In this document: piece by piece, positions 2,541 through 47,356 of the stretch
Layout: the number at the start of each line of letters is the position of its first letter
How positions within the stretch are numbered: position 1 is the stretch's first letter
Source of the DNA: Escherichia phage P817
Strand: one strand, 5' to 3'
Sequence record: MZ826699.1
DNA: 50,751 bases
Translations under genes and position numbers: made by a program
The notes under the pieces: model-generated
Database searches by the model: none
Told to the model about the DNA's origin: nothing
What the model saw: the letters and a program-made list of their open reading frames with translations, nothing else

Positions 2541-2731
2541 GAAATACCCCTTACATAATTAACTAAAAATTTATGAGTCGTTGTATCGACTCCGCTCATT
2601 TCCTTCACCTTTGAAACGGCTTCTTCGGCGCTACTGGCCTCAACCTTTGCTTCAAAGTTTTGCTTACAAGATGCGCATGTGCGCCCCATTAGCAAAATAG
2701 TTAGCTTGACCTCAAACATATCAAACCTCAT
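2534..2731 (-). CDS. hypothetical protein
   Basis: 65-aa ORF in minus-strand early gene string. Confidence 0.35.
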   Translation of the reverse strand: MRFDMFEVKLTILLMGRTCASCKQNFEAKVEASSAEEAVSKVKEMSGVDTTTHKFLVNYVRGISC

Positions 2732-2906
2732 TGTTAGGTCCGGTTACGGAGTCCGGCGGGCTTTCACAATGCCCCGATTTTTTTTTGCGACTTACACTTT
2801 GCTTTTGGCGATGCGCTATTTCAATTTGCGGCTTACGAACCGCTCGTTGCCACTTGGTGGCCTCGTCTGTTTACGAGATTAAAGATACCAGTCAGTGAGA
2901 TGGCTG

Positions 2907-3101
2907 TCAATCAACTTTTTTAAAAGTTCCATACGTCGGGCAAACAGGGTAGTCGATCGCGACCTTGTTCCCCTCGTCACTGTAGACGTAAACGTATCCC
3001 TGGGAATCAACTTTTTCCACTGTGTACTCGCAGCCAGTAAAGAACTCATAACCGCGCGCGCCGATACACTTGATCACGTCACCCTTCTTGATCTTACTCA
3101 T
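2907..3101 (-). CDS. hypothetical protein (start adjusted to MSKIKKGD, RBS GGAGAA)
   Basis: ORF-track frame 2907..3164; internal ATG with good RBS. Confidence 0.4.
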   Translation of the reverse strand: MSKIKKGDVIKCIGARGYEFFTGCEYTVEKVDSQGYVYVYSDEGNKVAIDYPVCPTYGTFKKVD

Positions 3102-3333
3102 AGATACTTTCTCCGTTTTCACGTTTGCCAACCAGCCCCTTAAGATAACCAGCAATCCACACAAATTTGTCGCGCGATATAATGGTCGCTACGGCCTCAT
3201 GGTGCTTGGTAATAATTGAGGCAACCATCTTATCATCTTTGCGATCTTTCTTGCTCAGGGTGGCATACGCTGCGTTTAATTGCTTGGCCTTGGCCTTTAC
3301 TGCGTTCATCTGCGGATCGGTTAATCCAAACAT
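3094..3333 (-). CDS. hypothetical protein
   Basis: 79-aa ORF, overlaps neighbours in operon fashion. Confidence 0.4.
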   Translation of the reverse strand: MFGLTDPQMNAVKAKAKQLNAAYATLSKKDRKDDKMVASIITKHHEAVATIISRDKFVWIAGYLKGLVGKRENGESIYE

Positions 3334-44495: not shown

Positions 44496-45455
44496 TTACG
44501 CGGTAGCTTTCAGGCCAACCAGCATGATAATCGTCAGCGGACGATATACGATCAGACCAGTGGTCTTGGAGGTGCACGGGACTTTAAAGTGCAAATCCTT
44601 CGCCTGCATCGGCAGCATGTTGAAAGGCTCAGGAATCTCGATGCTCATGTTCATCGGGTCTTTCTCATACGCCAGTACAGCTTTAGTGCCTGCGCCGTCG
44701 ATGTCTTCCAGTTCGGAGATGGAAGAGATGGTGATGCCACCGTTCTGAGACTTGAACCAGTCCAGATAACTCATCGTGGTTTCCGGCATACGCTTAGCGA
44801 GCAATTTACGCTGAGACGGCGGGATAACGATGTCGGTGATCTTGTGCTGACCATTGGTCAGGGTTTCCATCTTCTCGATCAGGTCGGTCAGTTCTTCGCT
44901 TGCTTTCTCTGCATCGCCCCACGCGCCAGCAACAGAAGTCACACGGGTAATGTTCGGATGGTCGAAAACAGAGATGATTTTGTGAGGCTTGGAGCCTTTG
45001 AAAACCAACTGGTTAACAAGTGTTTCGTGACCTTCACGCGCCAGAGTCGCTTTACGATCTGACAAACTTGAACCCAGCGCTTCACCATTTTTGATCTCGT
45101 CGATAGAAATCAGCCACGCGTTACCGAGGCGGTGAACTCGACCAGATTCCAGGCTGTGAGTAGCGTCAACAGTCGGCAGGTCGTCGGTGTAGTCAGCGAT
45201 AATCTTCGCCATGGTCACGCCGTCAAACTTGAGATATTCGAACAGGTTAGCGGTCGGGCTAATCTCAGTAGTTACAGGGAACAGAGCCAGAGCGGAAGTC
45301 TCAGGGTAAGCCGCTTCATACTGGCGCTTAAGCAACTGAGTCATCTGTTTAACGGTCCAGATGCCAAGCTGGTCGGCCTTGTTGCCGCTAACGCCAATCT
45401 GGCGCATACCAGTAGTGATCATGTTCTGTTCGAAAGAGTCGAGTTTCATAGTCAT
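44496..45455 (-). CDS. major capsid protein
   Basis: 319 aa; downstream of scaffold/decoration genes; followed by terminator. Confidence 0.7.
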   Translation of the reverse strand: MTMKLDSFEQNMITTGMRQIGVSGNKADQLGIWTVKQMTQLLKRQYEAAYPETSALALFPVTTEISPTANLFEYLKFDGVTMAKIIADYTDDLPTVDATHSLESGRVHRLGNAWLISIDEIKNGEALGSSLSDRKATLAREGHETLVNQLVFKGSKPHKIISVFDHPNITRVTSVAGAWGDAEKASEELTDLIEKMETLTNGQHKITDIVIPPSQRKLLAKRMPETTMSYLDWFKSQNGGITISSISELEDIDGAGTKAVLAYEKDPMNMSIEIPEPFNMLPMQAKDLHFKVPCTSKTTGLIVYRPLTIIMLVGLKATA

Positions 45456-45545
45456 AATTTGTTCCTTTTGGTTTAGAAAGACGTGATTAAGTTCACGAGT
45501 CTATAATAGCATTTTTTGTTAAGCGCGCAATAGATTTTTATGCAT

Positions 45546-45566
45546 TAAAAAAGGGGCCGAAGCCCC
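45546..45566 (-). terminator. intrinsic terminator (GGGGC-TTCG-GCCCC + T6)
   Basis: Perfect GC stem plus U-tract on minus strand. Confidence 0.6.
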
Positions 45567-45575
45567 GTATTTTAA

Positions 45576-46187
45576 TTAAGCCGCCGCGCCAGGGTCGCCC
45601 TTGTCACCTTTTGGACCTTGAGGACCAGTGTCACCTTTATCGCCTTTCGGACCTTGAGGGCCAGTGTCACCTTTCGCACCTTGAGGACCAACAACGGGAG
45701 CACCAGCAGATTGAAGCAACTGAATCTGAACGAGATCATATGTAGCATTATCAGATGATAACTTCTGACCAGTAAATTTATAACCAGTTGCAATATCGCC
45801 ATCTCGAGCAACTACGCCATCTGAGTTAAACAATACCTGCTTGCCGTAAGAGTAATCGTCATCAAGTAAACCAGCCTTAACGACAGGAACCCATACGCGA
45901 CCATGTGTAAGAACGTTTACAGCAATTCCGTCTTCATATTCACCACTTGCAGAGTATGCGTGACTCATAACTGAAACGCCAATCAATGGTAGAGAACTGT
46001 CAGTAGCAACCTTGACTACTTTGTGCCCGTCAACGGCTTGTACTTCACTCACTGCGAGAAGTCGCCCGACAGGGATTGAACCATCAGCAGCGCAAGCCCC
46101 GTCAACATTGTAAAGGGAGGTGTCTGCGATTTGACCAGCATACGCTTTAGCGCGATGTACGGTGTAAGAAGCTTTGATTAGTGCCAT
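45576..46187 (-). CDS. putative head decoration/cement protein with C-terminal collagen-like (Gly-X-Y)n tail
   Basis: Position between scaffold and capsid genes; C-terminus GPQGAKGDTGPQGPKGDKGDTGPQGPKGDKGDPG. Confidence 0.45.
   Translation of the reverse strand: MALIKASYTVHRAKAYAGQIADTSLYNVDGACAADGSIPVGRLLAVSEVQAVDGHKVVKVATDSSLPLIGVSVMSHAYSASGEYEDGIAVNVLTHGRVWVPVVKAGLLDDDYSYGKQVLFNSDGVVARDGDIATGYKFTGQKLSSDNATYDLVQIQLLQSAGAPVVGPQGAKGDTGPQGPKGDKGDTGPQGPKGDKGDPGAAA
45579..45700 (-). repeat. tandem DNA repeats encoding collagen-like Gly-X-Y triplets
   Basis: Repeated ggaccttgagg/ccagtgtcacc units of about 30 bp. Confidence 0.7.
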
Positions 46188-46240
46188 GATATTTTTCCTT
46201 TTTCACTTAGAGATTAAGCGGCCTTTCGACCGCCATTTTA

Positions 46241-47356
46241 TTACTTACGGAAGCGCGCCTGTGGATCAGGAATCGCATCATCATCTTTGCCGCCTTGAGC
46301 GCCATCAGCTTTGTCGCCGTGCACTTTAATGCGTTGAGCAGCCATCTTATCAGAATCGCGTGCGATTTCATAAGACTGATTGATGTATGCGTCGGATTTT
46401 TCTTTCGCGTCAATGCCGAGAACTTCGTCAATGACTGCCAGCTTGATGGCTTTCTCGTCAAGGCCGTCGCACTTGATACCCATGCCGGAAGCTAATGCGA
46501 TAACAGCGCCAAGCTCGTCAGCTTTTTCTTTTGCTTCTGCCAGGGCCGCTTCGATCTGAGCTGGAATGCCATCAACCTTTGCTTTCAGCGCATCACGCTC
46601 AGCTTGCAGGCCATCGACTTTAGCACCAGCTTGCTCTGCTGCGGTTTGCAGTTTGCCGATGTGTTCAGCTACGTCTTTTGACACTTCCACTTCTGCTGAA
46701 TCAATTTTAATTTTTACGGTCATGTTACTTTCCTCATTGGTTAATTGAACATGCTCATCATATTTAATTTCTTCTGAGCCGTCAAGATTTAATCTGGCAA
46801 CACCAGCTCGACCCTTGCTAACAAGTGCGACGTGATTAACCCTAATTTTTGTCTGTAGAACGTCAAACTCTACCCAGTCATCTGGGATGCTAATATCAGG
46901 CCCAACGTCGTCTTTGAAAATATATTCACCAGATGCATTTGAACCCCAACCTTCCCTGTGAATCTCAATAACTGTGTATCCTACTGACAACTCTCTAGCC
47001 CTGCCGCTCTCAGCAGCAGCAATTGCATCGGAGTCCATTATGGTGATCGGGCACATTACCTTGCCCTCACCTCTATCAGCAAAAGCCTCTCCAGAACAAT
47101 TACCCACAACAACATCTTTTGCGTTATCTGGAGTTACCGTTACGTGCCCAAGTGTTATTGGCTTCCCTCTGTAACTAGTCAGTGAGTCTATATCAAAAAC
47201 CTCACTTCCTGGCCTGAACTCCCTCTGTGTTGAGCCATCTGCTAACGTATACTCCTGTAAGCCAACCCTTGCAACTACTGGGACATCAAAAATAAATCCA
47301 TTCTCATCCTTTATCGCCTTAAATAACAGGTAATCAAACCTTTGCTTAGCTTTCAT
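46241..47356 (-). CDS. prohead protease / scaffolding protein (putative fusion)
   Basis: 371 aa; C-terminal Ala/Lys/Glu-rich coiled-coil-like region; position between head morphogenesis and capsid genes. Confidence 0.5.
   Translation of the reverse strand: MKAKQRFDYLLFKAIKDENGFIFDVPVVARVGLQEYTLADGSTQREFRPGSEVFDIDSLTSYRGKPITLGHVTVTPDNAKDVVVGNCSGEAFADRGEGKVMCPITIMDSDAIAAAESGRARELSVGYTVIEIHREGWGSNASGEYIFKDDVGPDISIPDDWVEFDVLQTKIRVNHVALVSKGRAGVARLNLDGSEEIKYDEHVQLTNEESNMTVKIKIDSAEVEVSKDVAEHIGKLQTAAEQAGAKVDGLQAERDALKAKVDGIPAQIEAALAEAKEKADELGAVIALASGMGIKCDGLDEKAIKLAVIDEVLGIDAKEKSDAYINQSYEIARDSDKMAAQRIKVHGDKADGAQGGKDDDAIPDPQARFRK

What the first reader, a model, noticed from the sequence alone, without database searches (positions are those of the whole stretch)
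45576..46187. Collagen-like Gly-X-Y tail on a putative head decoration protein
The 203-aa ORF between the scaffold/protease and major capsid genes ends with 11 uninterrupted Gly-X-Y triplets (GPQGAKGDTGPQGPKGDKGDTGPQGPKGDKGDPG), encoded by about 30-bp DNA tandem repeats. Collagen-like trimerising tails are unusual on capsid accessory proteins and suggest trimeric spikes or cement at capsid threefold positions. The repeat number is likely to be hypervariable.
Basis: seen in the sequence. Interest (0 to 1): 0.5.

Follow-up and report, generated by a model that had tools for sequence, protein, structure and literature searches.

The report
Collagen-tailed capsid cement protein
The gene is real: it is this T1-like coliphage's only capsid "cement" protein, and it carries an optional, length-variable collagen-like tail that probably forms about 140 short bristles on the head, a variant also found in some Klebsiella phages but apparently never studied.

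Summary
ORF 45576..46187 (minus strand, 203 aa) ends in 11 uninterrupted Gly-X-Y triplets, the only such run in any frame of the window. The window is the complete genome of Escherichia phage P817 (Drexlerviridae, Nouzillyvirus).

Residues 1-160 are an orthologue of the phage T1 gp49 cement protein (Pfam PF22758), at the same genome position. Solved T1, FCWL1 and Pam3 capsids show this protein as beta-tulip trimers at the 140 threefold and quasi-threefold sites of a T=7 head. The "trimeric cement at threefold positions" reading is therefore supported by homology.

The collagen tail is an optional C-terminal add-on:
- Most homologues stop right after the last beta-strand.
- Other homologues carry Big2 or unknown domains at the same junction.
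- About 9% of Klebsiella Webervirus isolates carry 18-22 triplets on an otherwise 90-98% identical gene.

Repeat number is variable rather than hypervariable. It ranges from 4 to 13 triplets among >90%-identical proteins, always in frame, with a mode of 11, and it is 11 in all three isolates.

The triple helix and its function (adhesion or trimer clamp) remain inferred. The only published precedent found is SPP1 gp12. I rate this a new variant of a known kind, of moderate interest.

The parts
45576..46187 (-). Complete CDS (203 aa plus stop) of the collagen-tailed capsid cement protein. It is identical to UAV84749.1, 'hypothetical protein [Escherichia phage P817]'.
   Evidence: ORF list; exact-sequence look-up; Pfam PF22758 and PF01391.
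46196..46199 (-). Shine-Dalgarno-like AGGA, 8 nt upstream of the ATG.
   Evidence: Read directly from the sequence; conserved in p111, ESCO41 and PH1062.
46086..46187 (-). N-terminal arm, residues 1-34 (MALIKASYTVHRAKAYAGQIADTSLYNVDGACAA). It is the conserved capsid-anchoring segment and lies outside the swapped cassette.
   Evidence: Identical in the otherwise ~50%-identical tail-less alleles of p111 and TH27. It holds most of the invariant columns of the family alignment. The equivalent N-terminus of T1 gp49 is embedded in the capsid, and the N-loop of Pam3 gp6 makes most of the contacts with the capsid protein.
45717..46175 (-). Cement (beta-tulip) domain, residues 5-157.
   Evidence: PF22758 E 7.9e-25 and 88 bits against a cut-off of 27; phrog_1989 E 2e-48; T1/FCWL1 cement chains E 1e-23; AF2 pLDDT >90 over residues ~30-160; Foldseek top hits 9kmg, 9kzj, 9kmh, then Pam3 8hdt_G and XM1 7kmx_a.
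45690..45716 (-). Linker, residues 158-166 (LQSAGAPVV), between the last beta-strand and the collagen repeats. This is the junction where other family members end or carry other C-terminal modules.
   Evidence: Alignment A1. T1 gp49 ends at the aligned ...VQLHQL. Big2 and other extensions begin at the same point.
45588..45689 (-). Collagen-like tail: 11 Gly-X-Y triplets (residues 167-199) plus the closing Gly200, with five K-G-D junctions. It is followed by AAA (45579..45587) and the stop codon (45576..45578).
   Evidence: Translation; six-frame scan and shuffles; PF01391 26.2 bits against a cut-off of 27.2; collagen peptide hits in the PDB.
45589..45689 (.). DNA tandem repeat underlying the tail: period 36 (2.8 copies), also describable as period 27 or 18.
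   Evidence: Tandem Repeats Finder.
45547..45566 (-). Intrinsic-terminator-like hairpin GGGGCTTCGGCCCC followed by TTTTTT, 10 nt after the stop codon. It is part of the swapped cassette.
   Evidence: Terminator scan. T1 has annotated terminators at the same position. p111 and ESCO41 carry a different hairpin there.
45523..46085 (-). Approximate extent of the mosaic cassette, from codon ~35 through the terminator. This is the stretch that distinguishes P817, PH1062 and TH21 (collagen allele) from p111, ESCO41, CJ19 and TH27 (170-aa tail-less allele).
   Evidence: Four-way DNA alignment. Megablast of the flanks splits into two pieces around the gene in p111, XT34 and GaoY1-9D, at 94-99% flank identity.
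44496..45455 (-). Major capsid protein, the binding partner of the cement protein; 61% identical to T1 gp47.
   Evidence: PF09950 and phrog_264; BLASTP against T1 gp47.
46241..47356 (-). Head maturation protease / scaffold gene immediately upstream.
   Evidence: DUF2213 and phrog_530; same synteny as T1.

Best explanation
The ORF encodes the single capsid cement protein of Escherichia phage P817. It is the orthologue of T1 gp49 and a member of the Pam3 gp6 / E217 gp24 family.

Shown or strongly inferred by homology:
- Residues ~1-34 form an N-terminal arm that anchors the protein to the major capsid protein.
- Residues ~35-157 form a beta-tulip body that assembles as homotrimers on the ~140 threefold and quasi-threefold sites of a T=7 head and clamps neighbouring capsomers.

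Inferred:
- P817 has only this one cement gene, whereas T1 has gp49 plus the Big2-bearing paralogue gp48. Every site should therefore be a homotrimer.
- The three C-termini should leave the outer face after a 9-residue linker and zip, from N to C, into a short collagen-like triple helix.
- With 11 triplets at ~0.29 nm per residue, the helix would be about 9-10 nm long. It would be stabilised by five K-G-D interchain salt-bridge motifs and by Pro in 5 of 11 X positions.
- The result would be a head with roughly 140 bare, charged bristles that have no distal globular domain.

Shown: the tail is an optional module.
- It sits at the same junction where relatives end or carry Big2 or other domains.
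- It is present or absent on near-identical genes.
- It travels in a recombination cassette that spares the N-arm.
- Its length drifts by whole triplets, through slippage or unequal recombination among the 9/18/27/36-nt repeats.

Most likely function (speculative, about 35-40%): a dispensable surface appendage that gives weak multivalent adherence to host-envelope or environmental polymers, as proposed for T1 gp48, T4 Hoc and SPP1 gp12. A secondary effect would be to clamp the cement trimer.
For: Identity:
- PF22758 E 7.9e-25.
- T1/FCWL1 cement chains E 1e-23.
- AF2 model with pLDDT >90 in the body, matching 9kmg/9kzj at TM 0.77-0.85.
- Synteny protease, cement, terminator, MCP, as in T1.
- The MCP is 61% identical to T1 gp47.

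Trimers at threefold sites: T1 has 80 gp49 homotrimers and 60 gp48:gp49x2 heterotrimers. Pam3 has 140 gp6 trimers.

Outward-pointing C-terminus: the gp48 C-terminal domain, which starts at the aligned junction, is an outward protrusion in the T1 map.

Single paralogue: phmmer of the N-domain and of T1 gp48 against all six-frame ORFs of the window finds only this gene.

Selection on the collagen frame:
- Gly periodicity is never broken in any of the 18 listed cluster members or the Webervirus tails.
- Changes are 5 synonymous to 1 conservative.

Optional module:
- 2 of 39 homologue clusters are tailed.
- About 22 of 249 Webervirus records carry the tail on a 90-98% identical N-domain.
- TH21 (tailed) and TH27 (tail-less) have near-identical capsid proteins.
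- The cassette boundaries are defined.

Length variation: 4, 7, 8, 10, 11, 12 and 13 triplets in the P817 lineage. Several variants were seen on 3-7 independent contigs. Webervirus isolates have 18-22.

Precedent: the trimeric collagen-like SPP1 gp12 binds capsids.
Against: - No tool here could model or test a trimer. The AF2 monomer leaves the tail at pLDDT <50, which is uninformative.
- Eleven triplets without hydroxyproline is short for a stable helix at 37 C, and a 4-triplet variant exists (P0045).
- I could not inspect T1 coordinates to verify that the three C-termini lie within reach of the trimer axis.
- The Pfam collagen score is just under its cut-off (26.2 against 27.2).
- There is no virion proteomics for P817.
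- The tail has no distal binding domain and no known ligand motif, so the adhesion role is a guess by analogy.
- SPP1 gp12 itself has no established function.
Confidence: 0.6

Rival explanations
1. The tail forms a triple helix, but its main role is structural. It would act as a trimer clamp that locks the three cement subunits together on top of the beta-tulip body, raising the avidity of the cement for the capsid and head stability. It would not be an adhesin.
For: - The family's known job is capsid reinforcement.
- The tail is a bare rod with no distal domain.
- The arrangement, an N-terminal trimerising domain followed by collagen, is the one that nucleates bacterial collagens such as Scl2 (own knowledge). 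Local matches to Scl/Lcl adhesin models cover the collagen part only.
Against: - Near-identical phages do without the tail, with the same capsid protein.
- Length varies from 4 to 22 triplets, which argues against a tuned structural role.
- SPP1 gp12 does not affect capsid stability.
Confidence: 0.25
2. The Gly-X-Y stretch does not form a stable triple helix in the virion. It would be a flexible, disordered, low-complexity C-terminal tail (an entropic brush or a neutral passenger), kept in frame simply because it follows an essential domain.
For: - There are only 11 triplets and no prolyl hydroxylation in E. coli.
- Variants exist with 4-8 triplets.
- Tail-less alleles dominate.
- The AF2 tail has pLDDT <50.
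Against: - A C-terminal passenger need not keep Gly at every third position, yet no variant breaks the periodicity.
- Substitutions are synonymous or collagen-friendly.
- The sequence is rich in K-G-D and G-P-X, features that stabilise non-hydroxylated collagen (own knowledge of host-guest peptide studies).
- The chains are pre-trimerised by the cement body.
Confidence: 0.2
3. It is a tail fibre or minor tail protein, as several database records annotate its homologues, rather than a capsid protein.
For: - Homologues in Klebsiella phages phi731 and HZJ32 are annotated 'tail fiber protein'.
- Many PHROG tail-fibre families hit residues 163-201.
Against: - Those hits cover only the collagen repeats.
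- The other 160 residues match solved capsid cement proteins.
- The gene lies between the protease and the major capsid gene.
Confidence: 0.02
4. The collagen reading frame is an artefact of a sequencing or frame error, and the real protein ends near residue 165.
For: The PH1062 GenBank annotation does not call this ORF. It calls short out-of-frame ORFs instead.
Against: - The PH1062 DNA contains the intact 203-aa ORF, as does TH21.
- Dozens of independent assemblies keep the frame.
- All indels are multiples of 9 nt.
Confidence: 0.01

Closest known systems
Phage T1 gp49 and FCWL1 cement protein II (PDB 9kzj, 9kmg, 9kmh), Drexlerviridae
   Same: - The proteins are homologous and syntenic: 39% identity over residues 1-159 and phmmer E 1e-23.
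- The predicted fold is the same.
- The gene position is the same, after the protease and before a terminator and the MCP.
- In T1 it forms beta-tulip trimers on threefold and quasi-threefold axes, with an N-terminus that penetrates the shell.
   Different: T1 gp49 ends at residue 158, right after the last strand, and has no tail. T1 also encodes a second paralogue, gp48. P817 has one gene and adds 9 linker residues plus 11 Gly-X-Y triplets.
Phage T1 gp48 (IgG/Big2-domain decoration protein)
   Same: It has the same N-terminal cement fold (E 1e-16). Its C-terminal appendage starts at the same junction and protrudes outward from the capsid. It is proposed to aid adsorption.
   Different: The appendage is a globular Big2 domain on one chain of a heterotrimer. 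In P817 it is a collagen repeat on all three chains of a homotrimer.
Pam3 gp6 / E217 gp24 / XM1 gp53 cement proteins (Pfam PF22758, PF23982)
   Same: P817's protein matches both Pfam models above their cut-offs, and there are structural matches to 8hdt_G and 7kmx_a. Pam3 has 140 trimers on a T=7 head, and its N-loop provides most of the capsid contacts.
   Different: These are distant relatives (16-18% identity in the structural alignment), they come from myophages, and they have no collagen tail.
Bacillus phage SPP1 gp12 (collagen-like capsid decoration protein)
   Same: It is the only published capsid accessory protein with a collagen-like motif that I found. It is trimeric, surface-exposed and dispensable for stability.
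   Different: - gp12 is a small protein with an N-terminal collagen motif and a helical C-terminal part.
- It binds the centre of hexamers (quasi-sixfold), not threefold sites, and has no beta-tulip domain.
- This is resemblance of principle, not homology. I did not compare the sequences.
Collagen-tailed cement alleles of Klebsiella Webervirus phages (Sanco, Sushi, NJR15, VAC4, phi731, Roth71)
   Same: - The architecture and junction are the same.
- The repeat motif is very similar (GPKGDKGD(T/P)GPQ ... GDPG-TPA/TSA).
- The tail DNA is 82-86% identical to P817's.
- They also come from single-cement-gene genomes.
   Different: - The N-domain is only ~47% identical.
- The tails are longer (18-22 triplets) and begin with a GIQ-rich segment.
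- All are uncharacterised, and they are annotated variously as hypothetical, head, decoration or tail fibre protein.
Collagen-like segments of phage tail fibres and bacterial collagen-like adhesins (Scl1/Scl2, Lcl)
   Same: The Gly-X-Y repeat composition is similar. PHROG tail-fibre families and the NCBIfam Scl/Lcl models give local hits to residues 162-202. Some cement alleles even carry the tail-fibre-type interruption SAYQIWLDAGNTGTEAQFLASLKG.
   Different: Scores are far below the family cut-offs (35 bits against 500). There is no distal receptor-binding head and no cell-wall anchor, and the anchoring domain is a capsid cement fold.

Membership tests
PF22758 Phage_cement (E217 gp24 / Pam3 gp6) structural cement proteins | Sequence match to the family HMM above the gathering score. 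| tested here: met
   88.1 bits against a cut-off of 27, E 7.9e-25, residues 5-157 covering profile positions 2-145 of 146. PF23982 also matches, at 45.8 bits against 27.
PF22758 Phage_cement (E217 gp24 / Pam3 gp6) structural cement proteins | Beta-tulip-containing fold like the solved members. | tested here: met
   The AF2 model (pLDDT >90 in the body) matches FCWL1 9kmg and T1 9kzj (E 1e-13, TM 0.77-0.85 on the target), Pam3 8hdt_G (E 1e-6) and XM1 7kmx_a (E 6e-4). This is a predicted structure, not an experimental one.
PF22758 Phage_cement (E217 gp24 / Pam3 gp6) structural cement proteins | [quoted passage not shown] | not testable with these tools
   Inferred from T1 and Pam3, and from the 61% identity of the MCP to T1 gp47.
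T1 gp49 orthologue (Drexlerviridae cement protein) | Gene located between the head protease and the major capsid gene, followed by a terminator. | tested here: met
   Window gene order compared with the annotated T1 record.
T1 gp49 orthologue (Drexlerviridae cement protein) | Conserved N-terminal arm that anchors in the capsid. | tested here: met
   Residues 1-34 hold most of the invariant columns. They are identical across alleles that otherwise share ~50% identity. The role of the arm is taken from T1 and Pam3.
Collagen triple-helix repeat (PF01391) / collagen-like proteins | Uninterrupted (Gly-X-Y)n with n large enough to be non-random. | tested here: met
   11 triplets plus Gly. The longest run in 100 shuffles of the window was 5.
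Collagen triple-helix repeat (PF01391) / collagen-like proteins | Pfam HMM score at or above the gathering threshold. | tested here: not met
   26.2 bits against 27.2, a near miss because the repeat is short. The precomputed Pfam marks for cluster representatives P0001 and P0002 do list PF01391.
Collagen triple-helix repeat (PF01391) / collagen-like proteins | Three chains actually form a right-handed triple helix. | not testable with these tools
   Only monomer prediction was available, and the tail has pLDDT <50. This needs CD with melting, collagenase digestion, cryo-EM or multimer modelling.
SPP1 gp12-type collagen-like decoration protein | Small trimeric protein that binds the centre of hexamers through a helical C-terminal part. 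| not tested
   Known only from the literature. The architecture described there differs from this protein, which I therefore treat as an analogue, not a member.
Phage tail fibre with collagen-like shaft | Collagen shaft that links a tail or baseplate attachment domain to a distal receptor-binding domain, encoded in the tail module. | tested here: not met
   The N-domain is a capsid cement fold. Nothing follows the collagen except AAA. The gene lies in the head module.

The most novel reading that the evidence does not exclude
The C-terminus of the single-copy Drexlerviridae cement protein is a natural 'plug-in' display socket on the capsid. Collagen cassettes related to tail fibres (plain repeats, or repeats interrupted by the SAYQIW...LASLKG motif), Big2 domains and unknown domains would be swapped in and out there by recombination that spares the capsid-anchoring N-arm. 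Repeat slippage would then tune bristle length. The resulting ~140 collagen bristles per head would measurably change where the phage sticks (capsule, O-antigen, mucus or biofilm matrix), and hence its ecology. That would be a capsid-borne counterpart of tail-fibre modularity.
Probability: 0.25. Interest if true: 0.6.

Novelty: new variant of a known kind. Interest (0 to 1): 0.42.

Why it matters
- Cement proteins are usually treated as pure structural clamps. Here the same clamp exists with and without a collagen tail in otherwise near-identical E. coli and Klebsiella phages, many of which are being developed for therapy.
- These pairs offer natural isogenic-like comparisons for asking what capsid appendages do for adsorption, retention in mucus or biofilm, aggregation and immunogenicity.
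- If the tails form triple helices, this would be a compact, hydroxyproline-free collagen nucleated by a beta-tulip trimer. It would also be a natural precedent for 420-copy C-terminal display on T1-like heads.
- The tail also causes recurrent misannotation. The gene is missed in PH1062 and called 'tail fiber protein' in phi731 and HZJ32, which can mislead receptor-binding-protein predictions.

Tried and rejected
- **Frame-error artefact:** rejected.
- **Tail-fibre identity:** rejected. All tail-fibre PHROG hits are confined to residues ~160-201.
- **A second cement or Big2 paralogue in the window:** none found.
- **Other collagen-like ORFs in the genome,** for example in tail fibres, as a possible donor: none of 4 or more triplets.
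- **DNA similarity of the tail as evidence of horizontal transfer:**
  - The 130-nt tail matches 368 phage records, including Mycobacterium, Weissella and Enterococcus tail-fibre genes, at 72-80% identity.
  - Codon constraint alone therefore gives high identity.
  - I treat only the shared motif and C-terminal cap with Webervirus tails as suggestive of common origin.
- **AF2 monomer prediction of the tail:** uninformative (pLDDT <50).
- **Literature:**
  - No paper combines 'collagen-like' with Drexlerviridae.
  - No paper combines it with cement protein in phages, beyond the decoration-protein review.
  - The Webervirus-plus-collagen hits were irrelevant.
  - The phi24B preprint concerns a tail fibre.
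  - The SPP1 gp12 primary paper is not held, so its details rest on citing papers.
- **Composition profile of the region:** nothing unusual.
Full report
**1. The observation**

The minus-strand ORF 45576..46187 exists as described (203 aa, ATG start, AGGA 8 nt upstream). It lies between a DUF2213/phrog_530 head maturation protease-scaffold gene (46241..47356) and a PF09950/phrog_264 major capsid gene (44496..45455).

Its C-terminus is GPQGAKGDTGPQGPKGDKGDTGPQGPKGDKGDPG-AAA. That is 11 uninterrupted Gly-X-Y triplets plus a closing Gly (residues 167-200; 45588..45689). Tandem Repeats Finder describes the DNA as a period-36 repeat (2.8 copies, 81% matches), with overlapping period-27 and period-18 descriptions, at 45589..45689.

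This is the only Gly-X-Y run of 4 or more triplets in any of the six frames of the window. The longest run in 100 shuffles was 5, against 12 observed when GAA is counted.

An exact-sequence look-up identifies the protein as UAV84749.1, 'hypothetical protein [Escherichia phage P817]', on a 50,751-bp contig. The window is therefore the whole genome of that phage. Its nearest relatives are classified as Drexlerviridae, genus Nouzillyvirus.

**2. It is not a frame artefact**

- Isolates PH1062 and TH21 carry the same 203-aa ORF with 11 triplets.
- Within the tail, the three isolates differ at six codons. Five changes are synonymous and one is Ala->Pro at an X position.
- In the two 90%-identity clusters that hold this protein, member lengths are 182, 191, 194, 200, 203, 204, 206 and 209 aa.
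- All members keep Gly at every third position. The counts are 4, 7, 8, 10, 11, 12 and 13 triplets, and several variants were seen on 3-7 independent contigs.

**3. What the body of the protein is**

- Residues 5-157 match Pfam PF22758 'Structural cement protein (E217 gp24/Pam3 gp6)' at 88 bits against a cut-off of 27. They also match PF23982 (XM1 gp53).
- Against PDB sequences, the best hits are the 158-aa cement protein of T1 and FCWL1 (9kzj, 9kmg, 9kmh; E 1e-23) and the 255-aa Big2-bearing decoration protein (E 1e-16).
- An AF2 model built on 35 homologues has pLDDT >90 over the body and <50 over the tail.
- Foldseek places that model on the FCWL1 and T1 cement chains (TM 0.77-0.85 on the target), then on Pam3 gp6 and XM1 gp53.
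- Gene order matches the annotated T1 record: portal, MuF-like morphogenesis protein, protease, decoration protein gp49, terminator, Ig-domain decoration protein gp48, terminator, MCP. The exception is that P817 lacks a gp48 equivalent.
- phmmer with the N-domain and with T1 gp48 against all six-frame ORFs of the window finds only this one gene.
- The MCP is 61% identical to T1 gp47 over its full length.

**4. What that implies structurally**

- Both proteins have a beta-tulip fold. The gp49 N-terminus is embedded in the shell, and the C-terminal domain of gp48 is a weak outward protrusion.
- In Pam3, 140 gp6 trimers occupy the same sites, and the N-loop makes most of the contacts with the capsid protein.
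- By homology, the P817 protein should form about 140 homotrimers, or 420 copies.
- T1 gp49 ends at ...VQLHQL, which aligns with P817 ...IQLLQ159. The tail therefore starts 7-8 residues beyond the natural C-terminus of the fold.
- That is the same junction from which the gp48 Big2 domain leaves the capsid surface.
- Three identical chains per site is exactly what a homotrimeric collagen helix needs. This is an inference, not a test. I could not inspect coordinates or model a trimer.

**5. The tail is an optional, mobile, length-variable module**

(a) Distribution among homologues.
- Among 39 clusters of close homologues, only two carry the collagen tail. The rest are 158-179 aa.
- An exhaustive HMMER search of 1.84 billion representatives found 60 relatives. 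Most are 145-180 aa.
- One relative (P0060, 221 aa) has 18 triplets. About 15 have one or two Big2-like domains, and four have 180-200-residue C-terminal domains of unknown type. All extensions start at the same junction.

(b) Klebsiella Webervirus phages.
- P0060 represents Klebsiella Webervirus phages. Sushi, phi731 and VAC4 have 18 triplets, NJR15 has 19, Roth71 has 20 and Sanco has 22.
- Megablast with the VAC4 gene finds 249 records that share the N-domain DNA at ~87-100% identity.
- Only 22 of them cover at least 80% of the gene. The others align only to about nt 467-477 and carry a short tail-less end instead, for example TSK1...VLQGAIAPAAATGDAGV*.

(c) A third tail type.
- It has collagen triplets interrupted by SAYQIWLDAGNTGTEAQFLASLKG. 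From my own knowledge, this motif is typical of phage tail-fibre collagen regions (P0120, P0124, P0132).

(d) The mosaic cassette within Nouzillyvirus.
- p111, XT34 and GaoY1-9D share 94-99% identical flanks with P817 but carry a 170-aa tail-less allele. So do CJ19, ESCO41 and TH27.
- The four-way DNA alignment shows divergence from about codon 35 through the gene's own terminator hairpin. Similarity resumes about 45 nt further on.
- The spared residues 1-34 are the most conserved part of the family and correspond to the capsid-anchoring arm of T1 gp49 and Pam3 gp6.
- TH21 (tailed) and TH27 (tail-less) have near-identical capsid proteins. One capsid therefore accepts both alleles.

**6. Mechanism proposed**

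Shown:
- Identity as a cement protein, and its single-copy status.
- The junction position of the tail.
- Strict maintenance of the Gly-X-Y frame.
- Presence or absence of the tail, and its length polymorphism.

Inferred:
- The three C-termini of each homotrimer zip into a short triple helix. At about 0.29 nm rise per residue (textbook value), 33 residues give about 9-10 nm, and 15-19 nm in the Webervirus alleles.
- Stabilising features visible in the sequence are Pro in 5 of 11 X positions and five K-G-D junctions. From my own knowledge of host-guest peptide work, K-G-D/E gives the strongest interchain electrostatic stabilisation in the absence of hydroxyproline.
- Nucleation would come from the pre-assembled N-terminal trimer, as in streptococcal Scl proteins.
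- Nothing follows the repeats except AAA (or TPA/TPAS/TSA in relatives), so the product would be a bare charged rod, not a stalk carrying a receptor-binding head.

Function is the weakest step:
- Near-identical phages lack the tail, and its length is loosely constrained. I therefore favour a dispensable surface role, weak multivalent adherence, over an essential structural one.
- This is the role suggested for T1 gp48 and for Hoc, pb10 and SPP1 gp12.
- A trimer-clamp effect and an unstructured brush remain live alternatives.

**7. Comparison with what is known**

- The protein is a member of the PF22758 cement family and an orthologue of T1 gp49. The HMM, fold, synteny and N-arm features were all tested and met. 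Oligomeric state and capsid position are inferred.
- The collagen-like criterion is met by direct reading and by the shuffle control. The Pfam PF01391 score narrowly misses its cut-off (26.2 against 27.2).
- The only published capsid decoration protein with a collagen-like motif that I could find is SPP1 gp12. It is trimeric but binds hexamer centres, has a different architecture, has no effect on stability, and its function is unknown.
- No held paper links collagen-like sequences with Drexlerviridae or with cement proteins.
- The sequences are in public records but are uncharacterised and inconsistently annotated.

**8. Verdict**

Cement at threefold sites is supported by homology. The tail is rare but recurrent and has a conceptual precedent. 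Repeat number is variable, not hypervariable.
- Novelty: a new variant of a known kind.
- Interest is moderate, at 0.42. It is a tidy, testable case of modular capsid decoration with ready-made natural controls, but not a new principle.

Noticed in passing
L001 (PH1062, OQ680139.1) 2670-3285: The GenBank annotation of PH1062 misses the intact 203-aa cement gene. It calls instead a 231-bp out-of-frame ORF over the collagen repeats and two 93-bp ORFs. The equivalent out-of-frame 79-aa ORF in the window is 45572..45811 on the minus strand.
   Followed up: yes
L009 (Klebsiella phage phi731) 965-1627; Klebsiella phage HZJ32, PQ821643.1, 31348-31461: Collagen-tailed cement homologues are annotated 'tail fiber protein', evidently because of the Gly-X-Y repeats. 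This could mislead predictions of receptor-binding proteins.
   Followed up: partly
window 45547-45566 (terminator) and 45480-45545: An intrinsic-terminator-like hairpin follows the cement gene and belongs to the swapped cassette. p111 and ESCO41 have a different hairpin there. Downstream, a stretch conserved across alleles (TTAACAAAAAATGCTATTATAGAC...) precedes the major capsid gene and may hold its promoter. T1 has annotated terminators, and a promoter, at the equivalent positions.
   Followed up: partly
window 46241-47356 and 44496-44520: P817 looks like a recombinant of two Nouzillyvirus lineages.
- Its cement cassette is of the PH1062/TH21 type.
- The N-terminal ~200 residues of its protease-scaffold (371 aa) are of the p111 type, as is the C-terminal end of its capsid protein (319 aa, ...VGLKATA).
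- PH1062, TH21 and TH27 instead have a 376-aa protease with a different N-half and a 317-aa capsid protein ending ...VGVGK.
   Followed up: no
proteins P0120, P0124, P0132 (Webervirus-type cement homologues): A third tail architecture has a few Gly-X-Y triplets, then SAYQIW(L/I)DAGNTGTE(A/E)(Q/K)FLASLKG, then 7-9 more triplets. The interrupting motif resembles those found beside collagen repeats in phage tail fibres. This suggests that cassettes are exchanged between tail-fibre and capsid-cement genes.
   Followed up: no
proteins P0076, P0085, P0089, P0090 (335-353 aa): Distant members of the cement family carry C-terminal extensions of ~180-200 residues, of unknown type, at the same junction. 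They are neither Big2 nor collagen by eye. I did not scan them against domain libraries.
   Followed up: no
window 1-50751: The window length equals the contig length recorded for Escherichia phage P817 (50,751 bp). The window is therefore a complete phage genome, not a fragment of a larger replicon.
   Followed up: partly
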